Of a DNA stretch of 64,000 nucleotides, positions 12,469 to 19,992 are shown piece by piece. How positions within the stretch are numbered: the stretch's first letter is position 1; every line of letters begins with the position of its first letter. Both the position numbers and the translations under genes were made by a program. Origin of the DNA: Escherichia coli (GTDB lineage Bacteria > Pseudomonadota > Gammaproteobacteria > Enterobacterales > Enterobacteriaceae). The notes beneath the pieces are model-generated. The model was not told the origin of the DNA. It made no database searches and saw nothing but the letters and a program-made list of their open reading frames with translations. The stretch lies in the NCBI RefSeq assembly GCF_003790525.1, contig NZ_CP033635.1; one strand, given 5' to 3'.

Positions 12469-12882
12469 ATGAAGGAATTATTGCTGTTATCGGTATTTTT
12501 GATATCCGCTTGCTCGACATCCTATGATGTTTATGACGGTGTTGATAAGGCATATTGCGACAAAGTTAAAATGGATTTTTCTCTTGCCAAGACGGCGAAG
12601 GATAGTTGTATTGATCACTACGTCAAGACTTATACCAAGCCAGCCTCATCGGCATCTGATATTGCTGAAGGTGCTGTGTTTGAGTGTAACAAGGTGATAT
12701 CCATCGCAGCGAGTTCTTCATACGATGCTGCTGTATGTGCAATGGCTGAAAGAAACGGCATGTCAGTGCAAAAAATTAATAGCATGATAAGCAGTAATGA
12801 CGAAGCCAAAATAAGAACTGATATCAGCTCGGTGAAAAAAGATGCCATGAACAGAGTTGTAAAATATCAGTCATCTTTATAA
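12469..12882 (+). CDS. Prophage lipoprotein (signal peptide with lipobox L-I-S-A-C), 137 aa, AT-rich gene
   Basis: N-terminus MKELLLLSVFLISAC read directly; AAGGA RBS; sits at the start of the accessory island. Confidence 0.65.
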   Translation: MKELLLLSVFLISACSTSYDVYDGVDKAYCDKVKMDFSLAKTAKDSCIDHYVKTYTKPASSASDIAEGAVFECNKVISIAASSSYDAAVCAMAERNGMSVQKINSMISSNDEAKIRTDISSVKKDAMNRVVKYQSSL

Positions 12883-13154: not shown

Positions 13155-13176
13155 AAAAAAGCCCGCAGCGCGGGCT
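13155..13176 (-). terminator. Intrinsic terminator of the cargo operon
   Basis: AGCCCGC-GCU-GCGGGCU hairpin followed by six U on the - strand; overlaps the stop codon at 13175. Confidence 0.6.
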
Positions 13177-13615
13177 ATTCTTCTTCATCATTAAAAAGCG
13201 GATTGTTGTTTCCATCTGATGAAAGGAAAGGTATGTGTTCTCTTGAAAATCCAACAATGACAATTTCATTATCATTTTTTGCATAATGAATGCATTCATT
13301 AGAATGCCTTCCGCCAGGGTTGAAATTTAAGTTAATGGTATAATTCTTAAATGTGTTTGGATACCATGTTGGCCCACAATGATAATGCCAATAATTCTCT
13401 TGCTCATAATTGTCTGAGCCGGGAATTTTATCATGGTTATCATCAACCCACGAGGGCTTGTTTTTTCCAACAAGCGCCCTTCCATTGGCAACATCCTCTA
13501 AAAAACTTTGTATGATTTTTATTTCATCATCAGTAAGGAAAGGTCCGTCTACAGCGAAAGGGGTGTTGCTTTCCCCATGTAGAAAACTATTAGATATTCT
13601 AATGTTAAACTTCAA
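13175..13615 (-). CDS. Hypothetical cargo protein, about 146 aa, low GC, Asn-rich, no recognised domain
   Basis: Probable TTG start at 13615 with AGGAG RBS 6 nt upstream, 20 nt after the stop of the 55-aa ORF; ORF track shows a longer frame from 13756 that overlaps the upstream gene. Confidence 0.5.
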   Translation of the reverse strand: MKFNIRISNSFLHGESNTPFAVDGPFLTDDEIKIIQSFLEDVANGRALVGKNKPSWVDDNHDKIPGSDNYEQENYWHYHCGPTWYPNTFKNYTINLNFNPGGRHSNECIHYAKNDNEIVIVGFSREHIPFLSSDGNNNPLFNDEEE

Positions 13616-13635
13616 GGAAAACTCCTGATGTGCTT

Positions 13636-13803
13636 CTATTTGGAGCGAAATGCCGCCTTGAAGTCGCTGAAAGATGTTCCTGTCTGGTAAACCATATCCT
13701 TGTCGCGCTCTTTGCTTGCGCGGCCAAGCATAACTTTTCCAATGACATCCCAGCATTGCTTGGCTTGTTCATTGTGCTGAGTACGATTTTTCAACGCTGT
13801 CAT
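13636..13803 (-). CDS. Small protein (55 aa), first gene of the cargo operon; possible regulator or antitoxin-like partner
   Basis: ATG with AGGAGG RBS 6 nt upstream, placed immediately downstream of promoter P_A; translated by hand. Confidence 0.5.
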   Translation of the reverse strand: MTALKNRTQHNEQAKQCWDVIGKVMLGRASKERDKDMVYQTGTSFSDFKAAFRSK

Positions 13804-13858: not shown

Positions 13859-13867
13859 TCTGTACAG

Positions 13868-13894
13868 AATTATTTAAAGGCACATCCCTGTGCC
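13868..13894 (-). terminator. Terminator-like hairpin after the antirepressor-like gene (GGCACA-GGGA-TGTGCC then TTTAAATAATT)
   Basis: Hairpin read directly; T-rich but interrupted tail. Confidence 0.45.
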
Positions 13895-13902
13895 GCCGCC
13901 CG

Positions 13903-14589
13903 TCAGAAGAACCCAGCCTTGTCGTTGATGTACTCCGCGTGGGTCTGGATATCACGCAGGCATTTGCTCACACCAACAATGTAGCAGAACATGGTGGTCA
14001 GCTCCGCCGCCGCGCCCGATACGTCGTGCCCGTCTTCCTGTAACTGGTTCAGCAGATTCATCAGCAGTGAGTTCTCCGTCAGGCCGAGAACACCAGACGG
14101 AGAATGAATCAGGCTGCGGTAGCCGGGCTTCAGTGGGGCACTGTAGGTTTTGTTCTCTATCTTCATTGCCTGCATCACTGCTGATGCTGTGGCGTTGGCT
14201 ACCTGGTCGGCAACTATCTTTATGCGTTCTTCCTGCGGGAGCGAGTTTTTAATGTAACTTCCGGTGCGGCGGATCTGAGGAAGAACCTCACCTGTAACCC
14301 ATTTACGAAAGCGGTAGGGGATAGTGCCTGGTGTCACTGCGTCGCGGCAGCGGAGGATCAGTGTGTAGAGGCCTGACTCGTTGATAATATTGGTTTCACC
14401 TTGACGGCCTAAGTTAAATTTAGCCCTTTCATCATCATCAAGAGATTTTATTGACATAGTGGGGTTTGTCAGTTGAAGAGCTTTAATAACGTCTTTGGCA
14501 ACAAACCAAGGATTTCCATCAATAACAATGGCTCGAATGGTGGCTTCTGATTCAAAATGAAAAACAGATGGGGTTACGTTAGCAGTCAT
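13903..14589 (-). CDS. Antirepressor-like protein with N-terminal BRO-N / AntA-type domain, 228 aa
   Basis: Motifs FHFE...IR..IDG.PWFVAKDV and ESGLY.LI read in the translation (BRO-N family, from memory); start set at ATG 14589 with AAGGTGA RBS rather than ORF-track 14742, which has no RBS and a Gly/Cys-rich non-protein-like extension. Confidence 0.8.
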   Translation of the reverse strand: MTANVTPSVFHFESEATIRAIVIDGNPWFVAKDVIKALQLTNPTMSIKSLDDDERAKFNLGRQGETNIINESGLYTLILRCRDAVTPGTIPYRFRKWVTGEVLPQIRRTGSYIKNSLPQEERIKIVADQVANATASAVMQAMKIENKTYSAPLKPGYRSLIHSPSGVLGLTENSLLMNLLNQLQEDGHDVSGAAAELTTMFCYIVGVSKCLRDIQTHAEYINDKAGFF

Positions 14590-14742
14590 AGTGATCACCT
14601 TTGTAGTTAGGTTAATCACCACTACCGACGCCAATCGGTTGGTGGTGAACTGTGCAGGGTTGGCGTAACCGGCTACAAAGGACCCGGCGCACCTTTCGGT
14701 GCCCCCACACAGCCCACCATAGAATAGGTGCGCTTTACACAT

Positions 14743-14761
14743 AAAAAAACCGCTTATGCGG
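14743..14761 (-). terminator. Short intrinsic terminator or attenuator in the leader of the antirepressor-like gene (CCGC-AUAA-GCGG followed by seven U)
   Basis: Read on the - strand; stem is only 4-5 bp, so call is tentative. Confidence 0.4.
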
Positions 14762-14855
14762 CATATGTGCCTCTGTAGTAACCCGGGACGCCAATCCCGG
14801 CACTGGATTTTGCCAGTGCCCGATTACTATGGCACAAGAGGAGTGCGATGTAAAT

Positions 14856-14898
14856 TTACCGAAAAGGTAATAATAAACACTCTACTTGGTAATTGCAA
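14856..14898 (-). promoter_or_regulatory. Promoter P_B (-35 TTGCAA at 14893-14898, 17-bp spacer, -10 TATTAT at 14870-14875) with operator copy B (TTACC-GAAAA-GGTAA, 14856..14870)
   Basis: Near-consensus sigma70 hexamers with exact 17-bp spacing; palindrome overlaps the -10 and start site. Confidence 0.6.
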
Positions 14899-14901
14899 AC
14901 C

Positions 14902-15159
14902 TTATCTGGTTTGTTTTCGTAATTGTTCGGCACAATAGTCGAGATGTGTTTGCAGATCCCGCATAGACATCTGTGAGCTGGTGACGTAGTTAATCAGTGC
15001 AGTCAGTTCGGCAAGTGGGCCATCGACATTAAATCCATCCTTATCGAGATCCCGGAGTAATTTCATCAAGTGCGATCCCTCCACCAGTGACCTGACGCCT
15101 CCCGGCGTGTGAATCCTTTCGGTAAATCCGTCTTCCAGTGGATAGTGATACTGCTGCAT
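14902..15159 (-). CDS. Small protein (85 aa) paralogous to the C-terminal domain of the adjacent antirepressor-like protein; candidate SOS-controlled small antirepressor
   Basis: By-eye alignment with the last ~70 aa of the 228-aa protein shows about 40 percent identity; ATG 15159 with GGAG RBS; LexA box directly upstream. Confidence 0.6.
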   Translation of the reverse strand: MQQYHYPLEDGFTERIHTPGGVRSLVEGSHLMKLLRDLDKDGFNVDGPLAELTALINYVTSSQMSMRDLQTHLDYCAEQLRKQTR

Positions 15160-15178
15160 CTTATCTTCTCCATGCAAT

Positions 15179-15198
15179 AACTGTATATTTATACAGTA
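15179..15198. promoter_or_regulatory. LexA (SOS) box AACTGTATATTTATACAGTA
   Basis: 18 of 20 positions match the consensus TACTGTATATATATACAGTA including both CTGT and ACAG arms; located immediately upstream of the 85-aa gene. Confidence 0.65.
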
Positions 15199-15235
15199 TC
15201 AAATAATTTGTTTGCTATCCAGCACGTTTTGCAAA

Positions 15236-15250
15236 TTACCCGAAAGGTAA
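15236..15250. promoter_or_regulatory. Operator copy C (TTACC-CGAAA-GGTAA) in the divergent region between the 85-aa gene and the tailspike gene, next to a TTGCAA hexamer (15229-15234)
   Basis: Third copy of the 15-bp palindrome; promoter partner hexamers not clearly assignable. Confidence 0.45.
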
Positions 15251-15354
15251 TATCTATTCGTATTTACAGTCTTTCTATCCATATGTGGTTTTTCAGGTAA
15301 TAGAATAACCAGATATGCGGCGCAACGGGTGCTGCGACTATCTGGAGATTTAAC

Positions 15355-17544
15355 ATGACGGTCTCAACCGAAGTTGACCACAACGAATACACCGGTAACG
15401 GCGTTACGACATCATTTCCGTATACCTTCCGTATTTTCAAAAAAACCGACCTGGTTGTTCAGGTGTCTGACCTGAACGGGAACGTAACAGAATTGGTTCT
15501 GGATACCGGTTATAAGGTAACTGGAGCGGGCACTTATAGTGGCGGTGAAGTGGTTCTCCAGTCGCCGCTTGCTGCTGGCTGGCGAATTACGATAGAGCGT
15601 GTGCTTGATGTGGTGCAGGAGACTGATCTTCGCAATCAGGGAAAATTTTTCCCCGAAGTTCATGAAGATGCATTTGACTACCTGACGATGCTGATCCAGC
15701 GATGTTTTGGGTGGTTCAGACGTGCATTGATGAAACCATCTTTGCTTGCAAAATATTACGATGCAAAGCAAAACAAAATTTCTAACCTTGCAGATCCATC
15801 ATTTGAGCAGGACGCTGTAAATAATCGCTCAATGCGTAATTATGTCGATGCTGCAATCGCCGGGGTTGTTGGTGGTTTTGGTTGGTTTATACCGTCAGGA
15901 AGCGGGGCAAGACAACGAACATTTCAAAGCAAAATGAGGGATATAATTTCTCCTTGTGATTACGAAGATAATATTTTTATGATTAAGGAGTTGATATCCA
16001 AAGGCAAAAATGCCGCTGTTTTTAACTCATATTATACTTTTGTTATTACTGTTGGCGAATGGGGTGATTTCCCTACACTCAAAGATGCAATCATTGCAGC
16101 CCAGTCAATGAGACCTATGTGGGATGGTGGTAATGCTTTCTGCGAAATAAGAATTAAGACCGGGCATATTATCAACTATCAAATTGAATTCAGTTCAGGT
16201 GTTGATTTGTCTTGGATTAAAATAACATCAGAAGACTCAGTGGTTTTCTCTGACACTCGTTTGTTTACTAAAATCGTTAGAACGTATTACGAATACAAGT
16301 ATTTATTTTACATTTGCGATGCAGCAAAAAGTCCTGTATTTGCTATTCAGATCGAAGAAAATAGAGATGATAGCGATGTTTGTGCATTTATTGTAACTCA
16401 AAAAGCTGAACTTAATTTCTATCCGTATTCAGGTGCTCGAAAGTTCTACGTTGGAATTCATGGTAGTTTTGGTGCAAAAATTAGTGCATATCATACCGGA
16501 TGTGCTCCTGATGAGGAAAGTGTTGCTGCATATATGCCAGAAGGGTATTACGTATGTGATTTTTCTTATAGCAGATACTCTTCCCTGCAACTGGTAAATA
16601 ATGTCAAGGCATCAATGCCTGTAAGCAAGTTTGAACGGTGCACAGAGAGTACGGTTGCGTCAGTTAATTGTATTTATAATGTTAAAGCAGATTTTCAGGG
16701 GTCAAGTGCAAGCTATTGTTATATAGGATGGAATGTAAGAGATGGTTCAAATGTTAATATACGCGACCATAAAACTATACATTGCTCATATCGTGGATTA
16801 ACCTGCATTCATACAGCATATGTTGATGCAAGACGACATGACGTTGAAGAAAGTGATGCAGAAACAAGTGGTAAAGTCCTTGAACCAAATATTGAAAAAG
16901 GTTTTTATGGATGTGCACTTGGTGTGCGTATTGATGGTGCGGGTTGCGTTGATGTTGCTGGTAATGATATGCGCAATTGTGGAACAGCCGTTAATGCAGA
17001 CACTGGTGCTGTTATTTCAGGAAAGGCTGTAGATATCTCAGGGGCTGAGCTGGGATTTGATTGCCATGCAGGAGCATCTGTTAATTTTCCAAGGCTATGG
17101 GGTACAGATATAAAAAAATTAATGCACCTCCAAGATGGTGTAAGGTTTAACTCTAATATTTGTCATGTATTTGGTGCAAATCCCACAAAAGATATTAGAT
17201 GGATTGATGTAGAGAGATCTGAAGCTTCTTTTATGAATGCAACGCTGGATGCAGATTCAGGATTTATTGCCGACTGTGGTAGTAGGATAACCATTGAAGG
17301 AAGTAAAGTTAAAAACCAAACAATAAGAAGTTTTTTTGGATCATATGTGGCTATAAATAATACTGTTGCTGACAGAACTTATTCAGATATAGCCGATGTT
17401 CCGCAGTTGACTATTAGTGGAGGATCTTTTATTTCTGCTACAGGATATTCTAATTCTGACTCCAGCCCTCTGAGGTTGAGCACAACACGAAATACACTTG
17501 GCGTTGGAGGAGCCATATTTTCAACCAATGGGGAAGTTTCATGA
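15355..17544 (+). CDS. Tailspike / tail fiber protein, 729 aa: conserved N-terminal virion-attachment domain plus divergent C-terminal receptor-binding part
   Basis: N-terminus carries the YTGNGVTT.F.Y.F pattern typical of podovirus tail fiber or tailspike adapters (from memory); C-terminal two thirds are AT-rich and Cys-rich; GGAG RBS 7 nt upstream. Confidence 0.7.
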   Translation: MTVSTEVDHNEYTGNGVTTSFPYTFRIFKKTDLVVQVSDLNGNVTELVLDTGYKVTGAGTYSGGEVVLQSPLAAGWRITIERVLDVVQETDLRNQGKFFPEVHEDAFDYLTMLIQRCFGWFRRALMKPSLLAKYYDAKQNKISNLADPSFEQDAVNNRSMRNYVDAAIAGVVGGFGWFIPSGSGARQRTFQSKMRDIISPCDYEDNIFMIKELISKGKNAAVFNSYYTFVITVGEWGDFPTLKDAIIAAQSMRPMWDGGNAFCEIRIKTGHIINYQIEFSSGVDLSWIKITSEDSVVFSDTRLFTKIVRTYYEYKYLFYICDAAKSPVFAIQIEENRDDSDVCAFIVTQKAELNFYPYSGARKFYVGIHGSFGAKISAYHTGCAPDEESVAAYMPEGYYVCDFSYSRYSSLQLVNNVKASMPVSKFERCTESTVASVNCIYNVKADFQGSSASYCYIGWNVRDGSNVNIRDHKTIHCSYRGLTCIHTAYVDARRHDVEESDAETSGKVLEPNIEKGFYGCALGVRIDGAGCVDVAGNDMRNCGTAVNADTGAVISGKAVDISGAELGFDCHAGASVNFPRLWGTDIKKLMHLQDGVRFNSNICHVFGANPTKDIRWIDVERSEASFMNATLDADSGFIADCGSRITIEGSKVKNQTIRSFFGSYVAINNTVADRTYSDIADVPQLTISGGSFISATGYSNSDSSPLRLSTTRNTLGVGGAIFSTNGEVS

Positions 17545-17837
17545 TTAAGAGCATTGATGTCACTCCATTTCTTCACTCGCTTTGCGCTTTTGCGGCTCAG
17601 GTACTGGTTGGTATTTTTACCGGAAACTGGGCTTACGGTGCGATAGCCGGTTGTACGTTCTTCATTGCGCGTGAACACACCCAGGCAGAATATCGCTGGA
17701 TAGAAAAGTTTGGGAAAGGGAAACGTATCAACATGCCGTGGTGGGGAGGTTTTGATCCACGCGTGTGGGATGTGGGAAGTCTGTTGGATTTTGCTGTTCC
17801 TGTTGTTTTTTGTTTTTGTGTTTATTTCTCTATTTGA
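17541..17837 (+). CDS. Small membrane protein (98 aa, two hydrophobic helices)
   Basis: ATGA overlap with the tailspike stop; hydrophobic stretches in translation. Confidence 0.5.
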   Translation: MIKSIDVTPFLHSLCAFAAQVLVGIFTGNWAYGAIAGCTFFIAREHTQAEYRWIEKFGKGKRINMPWWGGFDPRVWDVGSLLDFAVPVVFCFCVYFSI

Positions 17838-18039
17838 CTGCTACCGCGCCATTAAATGGTGCGGTATTCAACCTGCTCTTCACTGTTTGTTTCTTCAGAG
17901 TCATGTAAAAGGTGAGCTTTATTCTCGGCATGAAAAACAGGGAATTGACGATGTTAAAGTAACAAAAAACCATAAATGGTTTATTATGCGTAATGCTTTA
18001 CTGTTCAGGAGGTTGTTATGCATATAAACGGTGGAAAAC

Positions 18040-18444
18040 ATGTCAGCTCAACTAACCAGTGAAACTTTAAATCAGTGGCTTAGCATGAGTTCTCTGGCGG
18101 CGGTGATAGCAGGAGTTCCTCCTGAGGTTGCTTTGGGTGCTTTGGCTGGAGCGGTAATTTTTGTTACCTCTGCAGTAGAGTACCCCATCCGTCGCCGGGT
18201 GCTCCTGTCGATGCTCAGCTTTCTTTGCGGCCTTCTCTTTTACAAACCAGCAGCATCAATTCTTATCGGCATAGCCAGCCTGATCCCTACCATCACGCAG
18301 GACTCTTTTGAAAAAGGGATTGTTTTCTCTGCAGGCGCATTCGTGTCAGCAATTGTCGCTGTGCGTATTGGTATATGGCTCTATCACCGTTCCGATAATC
18401 CACGCGAGTTAATTCCGGGGAGAAAAGACGATGGTAACGCATGA
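18040..18444 (+). CDS. Membrane protein, holin or antiholin candidate (in-frame alternative start GTG 18031)
   Basis: Several predicted transmembrane stretches; two in-frame starts three codons apart (GTG-GAA-AAC-ATG). Confidence 0.45.
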   Translation: MSAQLTSETLNQWLSMSSLAAVIAGVPPEVALGALAGAVIFVTSAVEYPIRRRVLLSMLSFLCGLLFYKPAASILIGIASLIPTITQDSFEKGIVFSAGAFVSAIVAVRIGIWLYHRSDNPRELIPGRKDDGNA

Positions 18445-18739
18445 GTTTTTTTTGCTTATCACCAATGCAGTTATTTGCACTGGCATAGCAATTCGCGTTG
18501 TCACATTCCGGCGTAACGGCTCTCAACACCGAAGGTGGGGAGGATGGCTTGCTTATTTCCTGATTGTTGCTGCGGCCAGTATTCCTGTTCGTGTCGCCTA
18601 TGCAATCTGGTTACGTACGCCAATGGCTGTGGATTTATCTGAGGTCATTATCAACGCTGTCATGCTAGCTGCGGTTATTAAAACGCGCGGTAACGTCGTT
18701 CAAATTTTCAAAGTATCGAGGTCTAAACATGGAGATTAA
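18431..18739 (+). CDS. Holin candidate (102 aa, 2-3 transmembrane helices) immediately upstream of the endolysin
   Basis: Position and hydrophobicity pattern; overlaps neighbours at both ends. Confidence 0.5.
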
Positions 18740-19358
18740 ACAATTCCAGCGAGCTGCTGGTATCAGCGAGGCACTGGCCGCACGCTGGTTCTCGCATATA
18801 ACTTCTGCGATGAAAGAGTTTGGTATCAGCAAACCAGAAGATCAGGCTATGTTTATTGCTCAGGTCGGGCATGAGTCTGGAGGCTTCACCCGGTTGCAGG
18901 AGAATTTCAACTACAGCGTCAGCGGACTGGCTAACTTTGTTCGGGCTGGGCGTCTCACTCAGGGACAGGCCAACGCATTGGGGCGACGTGCAGGCGAACC
19001 ACCATTGCCACTTGAGCGCCAGAGAGCGATTGCCAATCTGGTGTACAGCAAACGCATGGGGAACAATGCCCCTGGTGATGGCTGGAACTACCGTGGGCGC
19101 GGGCTTATCCAGGTTACCGGTTTGAATAACTATCGTGACTGTGGAAACGGTCTTAAGGTTGACCTGCTGGAGAGTCCTGAACTGCTGGCGCAGGACGAAT
19201 ACGCGGCTCGTAGCGCGGCGTGGTTCTTTGCCAGCAAAGGATGCATGAAGTATACCGGCGATATTGCACGTGTAACTCTGATTATCAATGGTGGCCGGAA
19301 CGGCATCGACGACCGGCGCGCGCGATACATCAATGCCAGTAAGGTGCTGGCGGTATGA
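18729..19358 (+). CDS. Endolysin, glycoside hydrolase family 19 (chitinase-like) type
   Basis: Motifs [18 protein letters not shown] and NYRD read in the translation, recalled as GH19-type phage lysozyme signatures; position between holin and Rz. Confidence 0.8.
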
Positions 19359-19837
19359 TCTGGGCATTCGTAAAAGCATACTGGAAACAGTTGGTTATCA
19401 TGGCGATGCTTGCTGTTCTGGTCATATCAGGAGTTGTAGCCTGGAATGCACACGGTAGTCGTCAGTACGACGCCGGGTATGCGCAGGCGGAAGAAGACCG
19501 CAAAGACGAAGAAGACAAAGTTCGTCAGTACTACGAACAGGAGAAAGTGACCAATGAACGTGAAGCGCAGCAAAGAATCGACCAGGCGCGCAATGATGCT
19601 CTTGATGCTGCCGCTCGCGCTGGCAGGTTGCAGCAACAACTCTTTGCCATCCGTGAGCAGCTCAGGCAGTATAACGCCATTGTCGGCGCTGGGACGTCAG
19701 CCGCAGACACCGGAGTTTTGCTTGCCGACGTGCTCAGCAAATCTCTCGAGAGAAACAGACAACTGGCAGAGTATGCTGACCGGGCAGCCGAAGCCGGAAG
19801 AGTCTGCGAAAAACAGTACGACACCCTGACCAGATAG
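19355..19837 (+). CDS. Rz-like i-spanin (N-terminal transmembrane helix, coiled-coil periplasmic domain)
   Basis: ATGA overlap with endolysin stop; typical Rz architecture. Confidence 0.7.
19554..19829 (+). CDS. Rz1-like o-spanin lipoprotein, fully embedded in the Rz gene in the +1 frame
   Basis: Signal peptide ending in lipobox LAGC, Pro-rich mature part, embedded arrangement as in lambda Rz/Rz1 (established knowledge). Confidence 0.65.
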   Translation: MNVKRSKESTRRAMMLLMLPLALAGCSNNSLPSVSSSGSITPLSALGRQPQTPEFCLPTCSANLSRETDNWQSMLTGQPKPEESAKNSTTP

Positions 19838-19992
19838 CATGGTATTTTTCATGGCACTGATTTCCGGTGACGGTATATAAAACGGTACGGGAAAAGTTGA
19901 GCTTTGGAAAAATGTTATCACTCAATTGGTTATGGTGTCCGTGAATAATTGAGTGGGAATGATTTTGATCCCTGCACTATGAATGAACAAAA

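What the first reader, a model, noticed from the sequence alone, without database searches (positions are those of the whole stretch)
15355..17544. Mosaic tailspike with conserved N-terminal adapter and AT-rich, Cys-rich C-terminal receptor-binding part
Seen: the first ~170 residues carry the podovirus tail-fiber adapter pattern; the downstream sequence drops in GC content and encodes many Cys and Asn residues. Inference: horizontally exchanged receptor-binding or depolymerase domain defining host range.
Basis: partly seen in the sequence, partly recalled or inferred. Interest (0 to 1): 0.5.

Follow-up and report, generated by a model that had tools for sequence, protein, structure and literature searches.

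The report
Mosaic prophage tailspike with swapped receptor-binding module
This is the tailspike gene of a phiV10/epsilon15-like E. coli prophage: a conserved tail-attachment head joined to a foreign, AT-rich beta-helix receptor-binding module that P22-like and other phage types also carry, which is an ordinary case of a well-known way phages change host range.

Summary
ORF 15355-17544 (729 aa) is intact and has a good ribosome-binding site. Residues 1-179 are the epsilon15/phiV10-type (Uetakevirus) N-terminal anchor, not the T7 Pfam family. Residues 180-729 have GC 0.38 and GC3 0.24. This is the lowest-GC 1.65-kb stretch in the 64-kb window. Cys is 3.0% there, but Asn is not enriched.

Horizontal exchange is shown directly:
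- Homology to other Uetakeviruses stops at nt 15890.
- It resumes at 17554 (phiv142-3) or 18016 (ZX5).
- Nt 16172-17800 are 98% identical to tailspike genes of P22-like phages (JEP4, HZ41), which have a different head-binding N-terminus.
- More distant homologues of the module (37-70% identity) sit behind T7-type, N4/G7C-type, TSP1/gp66-type and tail-collar anchors.

Enzyme activity and the receptor remain inferred. Genomes carrying the module are O7, O11, O15 or O25, so no single serogroup can be assigned.

Verdict: a real mosaic of a known kind, carrying an uncharacterised receptor-binding subtype. Interest is modest.

The parts
15344..15347 (+). Shine-Dalgarno GGAG, 7 nt upstream of the ATG
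   Evidence: Read directly from the sequence.
15355..17544 (+). Tailspike / receptor-binding protein gene, 729 aa, intact
   Evidence: ORF list. Full-length match to PHROG 5662 'tail fiber protein'. 99.5% identical to phage HEMP4 and 98.7-99.9% identical in 10 complete E. coli genomes. Syntenic with phiV10 tail fibre gene p25.
15355..15890 (+). N-terminal anchor (particle-binding) module, aa 1-179, epsilon15/phiV10 (Uetakevirus) type
   Evidence: 94-99% nt identity to Uetakevirus tail-fibre genes and prophages whose C-termini differ. Homology to ZX5 and phiv142-3 ends exactly at 15890. 22 PHROG families match this part only. Residues 1-202 match solved Dpo31 domains D1/D2 at E = 1e-30.
15891..17541 (+). 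Receptor-binding module, aa 180-729: right-handed parallel beta-helix, AT-rich, Cys-rich
15891..16170 (+). Proximal part of the receptor-binding module (aa 180-272), specific to this lineage
   Evidence: Only about 55-57% nt identity to the JEP4 tailspike here, although the proteins are homologous. Found only in the full-length matches.
16172..17800 (+). Recently exchanged block: distal 457 aa of the module plus most of the downstream small ORF, 98% identical to P22-like phage JEP4
   Evidence: blastn gives 1631 nt at 97.9%. The 60-nt sliding identity rises from 57% to 98-100% across 16171-16290 and falls again at about 17790. The same block occurs in HZ41, 92CQ and five E. coli records (four distinct genomes) annotated 'phage head-binding domain-containing protein'.
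16204..16236 (+). Codons for DLSWIKITSED (aa 284-294), a motif with several invariant residues; it lies inside the crossover zone with the P22-like gene
   Evidence: Invariant columns D284, S286, W287, I290, D294 in the 24-sequence alignment. The identity transition spans 16171-16290.
17541..17837 (+). 98-aa hydrophobic small ORF whose start overlaps the tailspike stop (ATGA); conserved 3' flank of the swapped module
   Evidence: Sequence. phrog_1443, function unknown. No Pfam, NCBIfam or PADLOC hit. Homology to phiv142-3 resumes at 17554 and to lambdoid 1H12 over 17565-17806. It lies directly after tail-fibre genes in three phage groups.
15891..18015 (.). Whole cassette that differs from Uetakevirus ZX5: the receptor-binding module, the small ORF and a spacer
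   Evidence: blastn window versus ZX5: homology 13861-15890, then 18016-19964. In phiV10 this slot holds its own module plus oac.

Best explanation
The gene encodes the single tailspike of a phiV10/epsilon15-like (Uetakevirus) temperate podovirus that lies as a prophage next to yfgI.

Residues 1-179 form the genus-conserved anchor. By homology to Dpo31 this is a beta-sandwich plus the start of a coiled coil, and it fixes the presumably trimeric spike to the tail.

Residues 180-729 form a right-handed parallel beta-helix. It binds, and probably cleaves, a surface polysaccharide of E. coli, and so sets which strains the phage can adsorb to.

The beta-helix module is a mobile cassette brought in by recombination:
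- The 3' junction lies in or just past a conserved small ORF (17554-18016).
- A later homologous crossover, around the conserved DLSWIKITSED motif, exchanged the distal 457 residues with the tailspike of P22-like phages.

Shown: the gene, the module boundaries, the exchanges and the predicted fold. Inferred: trimer formation, glycan binding or cleavage, and control of host range.
For: Context and synteny: the first 20 kb of the window match phiV10, phiv142-3 and HEMP4 at 96-97% identity. The gene sits where phiV10 has its tail fibre gene, between the antirepressor region and the holin-endolysin-Rz genes.

Anchor. The Dpo31 paper (PMC13317679) reports that a cryo-EM study of the Carin-1 virion placed the homologous D1 domain at the base of the virion.

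Boundaries.

The same module behind other anchors:
- P22 head-binding PF09008, TSP1/gp66 PF18668, tail-collar PF12571 and T7 PF03906.
- The gp17 slot of a T7-like contig.
- The tailspike region of an N4/G7C-like contig.

Foreign origin: GC3 is 0.24 against about 0.42-0.58 for most other genes of this prophage, though two upstream small ORFs (12469-12882, 13175-13756) are also low at 0.34-0.40.

Opportunity for exchange: E. coli MS 198-1 and EC332 each carry both the Uetakevirus-type gene and a P22-like tailspike with this module.

The general model of a conserved anchor with an exchangeable receptor-binding domain in Uetake- and Lederbergviruses is published (PMC10408124).
Against: - No sequence-level link to any characterised enzyme. 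Pfam, NCBIfam and PDB sequence searches of the module find nothing.
- Only a monomer was modelled, so the trimer is assumed.
- The closest solved structure (Andhra gp15) has no demonstrated enzymatic activity.
- Genomes carrying the module belong to at least four O types: O7, O11, O15 and O25. This does not fit the simple rule of one module subtype per O serogroup.
- The receptor of phage JEP4 has not been determined.
Confidence: 0.85

Rival explanations
1. The beta-helix module only binds and does not cut. It acts as an adhesin-type receptor-binding protein with no glycanase, lyase or esterase activity.
For: The best structural match, Andhra gp15, is described only as a receptor-binding protein. 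Pertactin and the Vag8 autotransporter, which are non-enzymatic beta-helices, also score well. There is no Pfam catalytic domain. Two homologues carry an extra C-terminal SGNH esterase domain, as if the helix itself lacked an enzymatic function.
Confidence: 0.25
2. The module recognises something shared by several serogroups rather than one O antigen. Candidates are a common O-unit substructure, LPS core, ECA, colanic acid or a capsule. That would give a broader host range than classical tailspikes have.
For: Genomes carrying the module are O7 (PCP07083), O11 (MS 198-1), O15 (six genomes, including one P22-like lysogen) and O25 (GN02461). JEP4 was reported to lyse 32 of 67 AMR E. coli across phylogroups. 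Pas et al. list other Uetakevirus subtypes found across several serogroups and suggest non-O-antigen receptors.
Against: - The O11, O15 and O25 lysogens share the prophage position and neighbouring genes. From memory, these O types fit the ST69 clone, but no sequence typing was done. O-antigen switching after lysogeny would then explain the spread.
- A prophage need not match its present host.
- The JEP4 paper reports myovirus morphology for a P22-like genome, so its host-range data may not belong to this genome.
- Only a few independent lineages were typed.
Confidence: 0.3
3. The composition shift is not a sign of foreign origin. It only reflects the amino-acid make-up of a beta-helix protein, and the gene is a vertically inherited single unit.
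For: Beta-helix proteins are rich in Asn, Ser, Gly and Ile, which favours AT-rich codons. Cys richness is a family trait.
Against: The drop is strongest at synonymous third positions (GC3 0.24 versus 0.46 in the anchor). DNA homology to sister phages breaks exactly at the module borders. The module is 98% identical in an unrelated phage genus.
Confidence: 0.02
4. The gene is a relic in a defective prophage and no longer functions.
For: It lies in a chromosomal prophage, and RefSeq annotates it as 'hypothetical protein'.
Against: The 729-codon ORF is intact with a good SD sequence. It is 99.5% identical in the 39.9-kb phage genome HEMP4, which covers 96% of the prophage part of the window. The neighbouring virion and lysis genes are intact.
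Confidence: 0.05

Closest known systems
phiV10 tail fibre gp25 (O157-specific) and epsilon15 tailspike gp20: the Uetakevirus receptor-binding proteins
   Same: Same genome position and the same N-terminal anchor. Nt 1-536 are 94-99% identical to genus members, about 82% to phiV10 and about 74% to epsilon15-like Salmonella phages. Same two-part plan of anchor plus exchangeable distal module (PMC10408124).
   Different: The distal module is unrelated. phiV10 follows its gene with the O-acetyltransferase oac on the opposite strand, whereas here a 98-aa hydrophobic ORF follows on the same strand.
Tailspikes of P22-like (Lederbergvirus) phages JEP4 and HZ41 and of related E. coli prophages
   Same: Distal 457 residues and the downstream small ORF are 98% identical at the DNA level. 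The whole module is 89% identical at the protein level.
   Different: Their N-terminus is the P22 head-binding domain (PF09008), not the Uetakevirus anchor. The first roughly 90 residues of the module are only about 55% identical in DNA.
Staphylococcus phage Andhra receptor-binding protein gp15 (PDB 8EGR)
   Different: 12-15% sequence identity, a Gram-positive host, a different N-terminal attachment, and no detectable sequence relationship.
Dpo31 tailspike of marine podovirus Carin-1 (PDB 28lx / 8ck1)
   Same: Residues 1-202 align with Dpo31 residues 1-207 at E = 1e-30. In Dpo31 this is the beta-sandwich D1 plus the start of the coiled coil D2, the end that attaches to the virion.
   Different: The Dpo31 catalytic beta-helix and its C-terminal chaperone domain D4 have no counterpart in the sequence here.
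P22, HK620 and Sf6 tailspike endoglycosidases (the textbook model)
   Different: No sequence similarity, different anchors, and activity and receptor not shown here.

Membership tests
Uetakevirus (epsilon15/phiV10-type) receptor-binding protein | N-terminal anchor homologous to the first ~200 aa of phiV10 gp25 / epsilon15 gp20 | tested here: met
   Nt 1-536 are 94-99% identical to Uetakevirus genes and 74% to epsilon15-like Salmonella phages. They are 82% identical to phiV10. PHROG tail families match aa 1 to about 166-205.
Uetakevirus (epsilon15/phiV10-type) receptor-binding protein | Position in a phiV10-like genome, between the antirepressor region and the lysis cassette, as the only tailspike gene | tested here: met
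   Window 1-19964 matches phiV10, phiv142-3 and HEMP4 at 96-97% identity in the same gene order. Flanking genes were identified by PHROGs.
Uetakevirus (epsilon15/phiV10-type) receptor-binding protein | The anchor physically attaches the spike to the tail | not testable with these tools
   Only by analogy: the homologous Dpo31 D1 domain is reported at the base of the Carin-1 virion (PMC13317679).
Pfam Phage_T7_tail (PF03906), the T7 gp17-type adapter | Significant match to the family profile over the N-terminal ~150 aa | tested here: not met
   E = 8.3, covering only residues 135-161. BLASTP against the anchor of a genuine T7-type homologue gives no significant match.
Right-handed parallel beta-helix tailspike / depolymerase (pectin-lyase-like fold) | Beta-helix fold of the distal domain | tested here: met
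Right-handed parallel beta-helix tailspike / depolymerase (pectin-lyase-like fold) | Homotrimer | not tested
   Only a monomer was modelled. The structural neighbours are trimers.
Right-handed parallel beta-helix tailspike / depolymerase (pectin-lyase-like fold) | Catalytic acidic residues in a substrate groove, and measurable glycan cleavage | tested here: inconclusive
   Invariant E335, D402, D463, D538 and several Arg/His residues exist. They could not be placed on the model, and there is no match to a catalytic Pfam family; Beta_helix PF13229 is hit by 1 of 24 members. Activity needs an experiment.
P22-type tailspike (head-binding domain PF09008) | P22 head-binding N-terminal domain | tested here: not met
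   No PF09008 match in this protein. That domain is present in the relatives P0002, P0006, P0007 and P0017, which share the distal module.
O-serogroup-specific receptor-binding subtype (criterion of Pas et al. 2023: one subtype, one host serogroup) | All hosts or lysogens of the subtype share one O serogroup | tested here: not met
   RefSeq wzx/wzy annotations give O11, O15, O25 and O7. Clonal descent followed by O-antigen switching may confound this.

The most novel reading that the evidence does not exclude
This uncharacterised beta-helix subtype may recognise a receptor common to several E. coli serogroups. Separately, the small hydrophobic ORF whose start overlaps the tailspike stop (phrog_1443) lies directly 3' of receptor-binding genes in Uetake-, Lederberg- and lambdoid phages. 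It may be a dedicated partner of these cassettes, either as the 3' homology arm that lets temperate phages swap modules or as a co-expressed membrane factor.
Probability: 0.2. Interest if true: 0.5.

Novelty: new member of a known kind. Interest (0 to 1): 0.3.

Why it matters
The gene is a clean natural example of how temperate E. coli phages re-tool host recognition. [quoted passage not shown] In two genomes (MS 198-1, EC332), prophages of two different types carry the same module.

The module family has no Pfam model, no solved structure and no assigned receptor. It has 834 cluster representatives at E <= 0.001 in a 1.84-billion-protein library.

If its receptor turns out to be shared among serogroups, it would be a useful part for engineering phage or tailocin host range. 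Otherwise it adds one more receptor-binding subtype to a well-described system.

Tried and rejected
- **Sequence-based function for the module.** Pfam on the protein and on all 24 family members, NCBIfam, PADLOC, and PDB sequence searches with both the protein and the profile gave nothing beyond one weak Beta_helix hit.
- **T7-type adapter reading.** Rejected.
- **Receptor from lysogen serotypes.** I located the O-antigen clusters of MS 198-1, 118UI, GN02461 and PCP07083. I then ran a chimeric query (tailspike C-terminus plus O15 wzy) to count co-occurrence. The O types are mixed, so no assignment is possible. A guess at the cluster position in FORC_082 landed in the flg/fab region, and I dropped it.
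- **Literature.** The JEP4 paper gives no receptor, and its morphology does not fit the genome. Pas et al. 2023 do not include JEP4, HZ41 or VEc3. Nothing was found on HEMP4.
- **Small ORF tied to this module.** I tested whether it is specific to this module. It is not, since it also follows other receptor-binding genes.
- **Promoter and terminator scan.** No more sites than in shuffled sequence.
- **Mapping invariant residues on the model.** Not possible, because model coordinates are not exposed to scripts.
Full report
**1. What is in the sequence**

Coordinates 15355-17544 (+) hold one uninterrupted ORF of 729 codons. GGAG lies 7 nt upstream of the ATG.

Composition changes sharply along the gene. 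Codons 1-170 have GC 0.465 and GC3 0.46. Codons 171-729 have GC 0.380 and GC3 0.24. The window as a whole is 0.508. Among all 1650-nt stretches of the 64-kb window, the lowest GC (0.376, 3.5 SD below the mean) starts at 15909, inside this gene.

Cysteine is 1 residue in the first 170 and 17 (3.0%) in the rest. P is about 2e-4 against a 1.1% background, which I set roughly from the window's other ORFs rather than computing it. The large virion proteins of the same prophage have 0.1-0.7% Cys. Asparagine is not enriched in the C-terminal part (5.2% versus 5.9%), so that detail of the finding does not hold.

**2. Genomic setting**

The first ~20 kb of the window are the right half of a phiV10/epsilon15-like (genus Uetakevirus) prophage. 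They match phage HEMP4 (97% identity over 96% of the stretch), phiv142-3 and phiV10 in the same gene order.

In phiV10 the corresponding gene is the tail fibre p25. It is preceded by the antirepressor region and followed by oac, a membrane protein, holin, endolysin and Rz. The same neighbours are present here, identified by PHROGs and by the RefSeq annotation of an identical locus in E. coli MS 198-1. In that genome the prophage abuts yfgI-yfgH-pdeF-ppx.

**3. The N-terminal part**

Twenty-three PHROG tail-fibre or tailspike families match the protein. Twenty-two of them match only residues 1 to about 160-205. One (phrog_5662) matches full length.

Megablast finds nt 1-536 at 94-99% identity in many Uetakevirus phages and several hundred E. 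coli prophages whose downstream sequence differs. It also finds nt 1-346 at about 74% identity in epsilon15-like Salmonella phages.

The only solved relative is the tailspike Dpo31 of marine podovirus Carin-1, aligned over residues 1-202 at E = 1e-30. In Dpo31 this region is a beta-sandwich (D1) followed by the start of a coiled coil (D2). The Dpo31 paper reports that a cryo-EM study placed D1 at the base of the virion (PMC13317679).

The T7 adapter family is not matched. Pfam PF03906 scores E = 8.3, and there is no BLASTP similarity to a genuine T7-type anchor. So the 'adapter' reading is right, but the type is epsilon15/phiV10.

**4. The module borders**

- Against Uetakevirus ZX5, homology runs 13861-15890 and resumes at 18016.
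- Against phiv142-3, a Uetakevirus with yet another distal module, it runs to 15890 and resumes at 17554, ten bases after the stop codon.
- Twenty-three protein homologues with unrelated N-termini all begin to align at residues 183-188, with two exceptions at 153 and 178, and continue to the C-terminus.

The module is therefore aa 180-729 (nt 15891-17541). It begins at FIPSGSGARQRT.

**5. Direct evidence of exchange**

Nt 16172-17800 are 97.9% identical to the tailspike region of the P22-like phage JEP4. The same block is in HZ41, 92CQ and five E. coli records (four distinct genomes) annotated 'phage head-binding domain-containing protein'.

A 60-nt sliding comparison shows about 55-57% identity from 15934 to 16170. 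Identity then rises across 16171-16290 to 98-100% and collapses again at about 17790. The rise spans the codons for DLSWIKITSED (16204-16236), a motif with several residues invariant across the family.

I infer a homologous crossover there, between two already related modules. The right end of the block lies inside the next small ORF.

More distant homologues (37-70% identity over the whole module) carry other N-termini:
- P22 head-binding (PF09008);
- TSP1/gp66 N-terminal (PF18668);
- tail-collar (PF12571);
- T7 tail (PF03906);
- two have an added C-terminal SGNH esterase.

One homologue sits in the gp17 slot of a T7-like 40-kb contig. Another lies in the tailspike region of an N4/G7C-like 72-kb contig. 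In the phage collection the module also occurs in VEc3 at 47% identity.

A profile search of 1.84 billion cluster representatives finds 834 relatives at E <= 0.001 and 39 at E <= 1e-30.

E. coli MS 198-1 and EC332 each carry both the Uetakevirus-type gene and a P22-like tailspike with this module. That is the situation in which such exchanges can happen.

**6. Fold**

An AlphaFold2 model of aa 178-729, built with the 24-sequence alignment, has mean pLDDT 94 and pTM 0.89 and is almost entirely beta.

The Andhra paper describes gp15 as a trimeric 19-layer beta-helix related to alginate lyases and to the P22 and Det7 tailspikes (PMC9710869).

No sequence method links the module to a characterised family. 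The family keeps a set of invariant charged residues: E335, R337, R362, K363, D402, R462, D463, R470, H486, R493, D538, R540 and R580. I could not place them on the model, because model coordinates are not exposed to scripts.

**7. How it most likely works**

- Shown: an anchor of the genus type, joined to a foreign, exchangeable beta-helix module.
- Inferred from the established behaviour of the P22, HK620, Sf6, epsilon15 and phiV10 tailspikes, and from the modular model of Pas et al. (PMC10408124): the protein forms a trimer; the anchor docks on the tail; the helix binds and probably cleaves a surface polysaccharide; and swapping the helix changes host range.

I put about 0.85 on this overall picture. 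I put about 0.5-0.6 on the module being catalytic rather than binding only.

**8. The receptor is open**

RefSeq wzx/wzy annotations give the following O types:
- MS 198-1 is O11.
- 118UI is O15.
- GN02461 is O25, with a frameshifted wzy.
- PCP07083, a P22-like lysogen, is O7.

A chimeric query showed that six of the fifteen module-bearing records carry O15 wzy. Five are Uetakevirus lysogens and one is the P22-like lysogen 24A16CRGN010.

Only 100 of 5426 complete genomes are O15, so O15 is over-represented. However, the five Uetakevirus lysogens carry near-identical copies of the gene (99.9% to the window) and may be clonal. Those whose surroundings I examined share the prophage position and neighbouring genes. 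From memory, O11, O15 and O25 all occur in ST69; no sequence typing was done here.

The pattern therefore fits either O-antigen switching after lysogeny or a receptor not confined to one serogroup. Pas et al. report other Uetakevirus subtypes spread over several serogroups and raise the same two options.

JEP4 was reported to lyse 32 of 67 AMR E. coli, but its receptor was not determined. The paper's myovirus morphology also does not fit a P22-like genome.

**9. The flank**

The next ORF (17541-17837, 98 aa) starts with an ATG that overlaps the tailspike stop (ATGA). It has two hydrophobic stretches at the N-terminus and one at the C-terminus. It belongs to phrog_1443, of unknown function, and has no Pfam, NCBIfam or PADLOC match.

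It lies directly after receptor-binding genes in three groups of phages:
- Uetakeviruses (HEMP4, phiv142-3);
- Lederbergviruses (JEP4, HZ41);
- lambdoid Jouyvirus phages.

It shows 85-98% DNA identity across these groups. It occupies the slot where phiV10 carries its O-antigen acetyltransferase.

Pas et al. found conserved motifs flanking the receptor-binding domain in lytic genera but not in Uetake- or Lederbergviruses. This small ORF could play that role in the temperate phages. That is an idea, not a result.

**10. Comparison and verdict**

This is a member of the Uetakevirus receptor-binding protein family by anchor and synteny. It is a beta-helix tailspike by predicted fold. It is not a member of the T7-tail or P22 head-binding families.

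Its distal module is an uncharacterised subtype shared with P22-like, T7-like, N4-like and other phages. Near-identical copies of the gene are already in public databases (HEMP4, PHROG 5662, WP_000218903.1). The principle of a conserved anchor with a horizontally exchanged distal domain is well described.

It is an ordinary example of a known mechanism. Modest interest attaches to the unassigned receptor and to the conserved small ORF on the flank.

Noticed in passing
window 17541-17837 (+): 98-aa hydrophobic ORF whose ATG overlaps the tailspike stop codon (ATGA). It belongs to phrog_1443, function unknown, with no Pfam, NCBIfam or PADLOC hit. It lies directly 3' of tail-fibre or tailspike genes in Uetake-, Lederberg- and lambdoid Jouyvirus phages, in the slot where phiV10 has oac. 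It may be a 3' recombination arm or a co-expressed membrane factor.
   Followed up: partly
E. coli MS 198-1 NZ_CP146687.1, 1501187-1503376 and 1687879-1688569; EC332 NZ_AP039429.1, 3536911-3539100 and 1609604-1610308: Two prophages in one chromosome, one Uetakevirus-type and one P22-like, both carry this receptor-binding module. GPEC1186 also has a second matching place, which I did not locate.
   Followed up: partly
proteins P0015 and P0017 (homologues): Two homologues of the module carry an extra ~167-aa C-terminal SGNH/GDSL esterase domain (PF13472, PF00657). This suggests that some relatives combine the helix with a deacetylase.
   Followed up: no
window 12469-12882 (+) and 13175-13756 (-): Two further low-GC ORFs (GC 0.39) lie between the virion genes and the antirepressor. 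One has 137 aa (phrog_8691, 3.6% Cys), where phiV10 has only a 141-nt ORF. The other has 193 aa (phrog_5954, 10.9% Asn). This looks like another variable, moron-like region.
   Followed up: no
window 13903-14742 (-) and 14902-15177 (-): A BRO-N/Ant-type antirepressor gene, plus a separate 91-aa ORF that matches only the C-terminal part of such antirepressors (phrog_450, phrog_1760). This looks like a duplicated or split C-terminal domain.
   Followed up: no
L005 34778-37109 (E. coli MS 198-1 O-antigen locus): In the O11 lysogen MS 198-1, galF is split by an IS4 insertion just upstream of the O-antigen cluster. In the O25 lysogen GN02461, wzy is frameshifted (L009 9902-10964). Some lysogens may therefore have altered or rough LPS.
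   Followed up: no
PMC8425383 (JEP4 paper): JEP4 is described as having myovirus morphology with a ~103-nm tail, yet its deposited 39-kb genome is a P22-like Lederbergvirus. The published host range may not belong to the sequenced genome.
   Followed up: no
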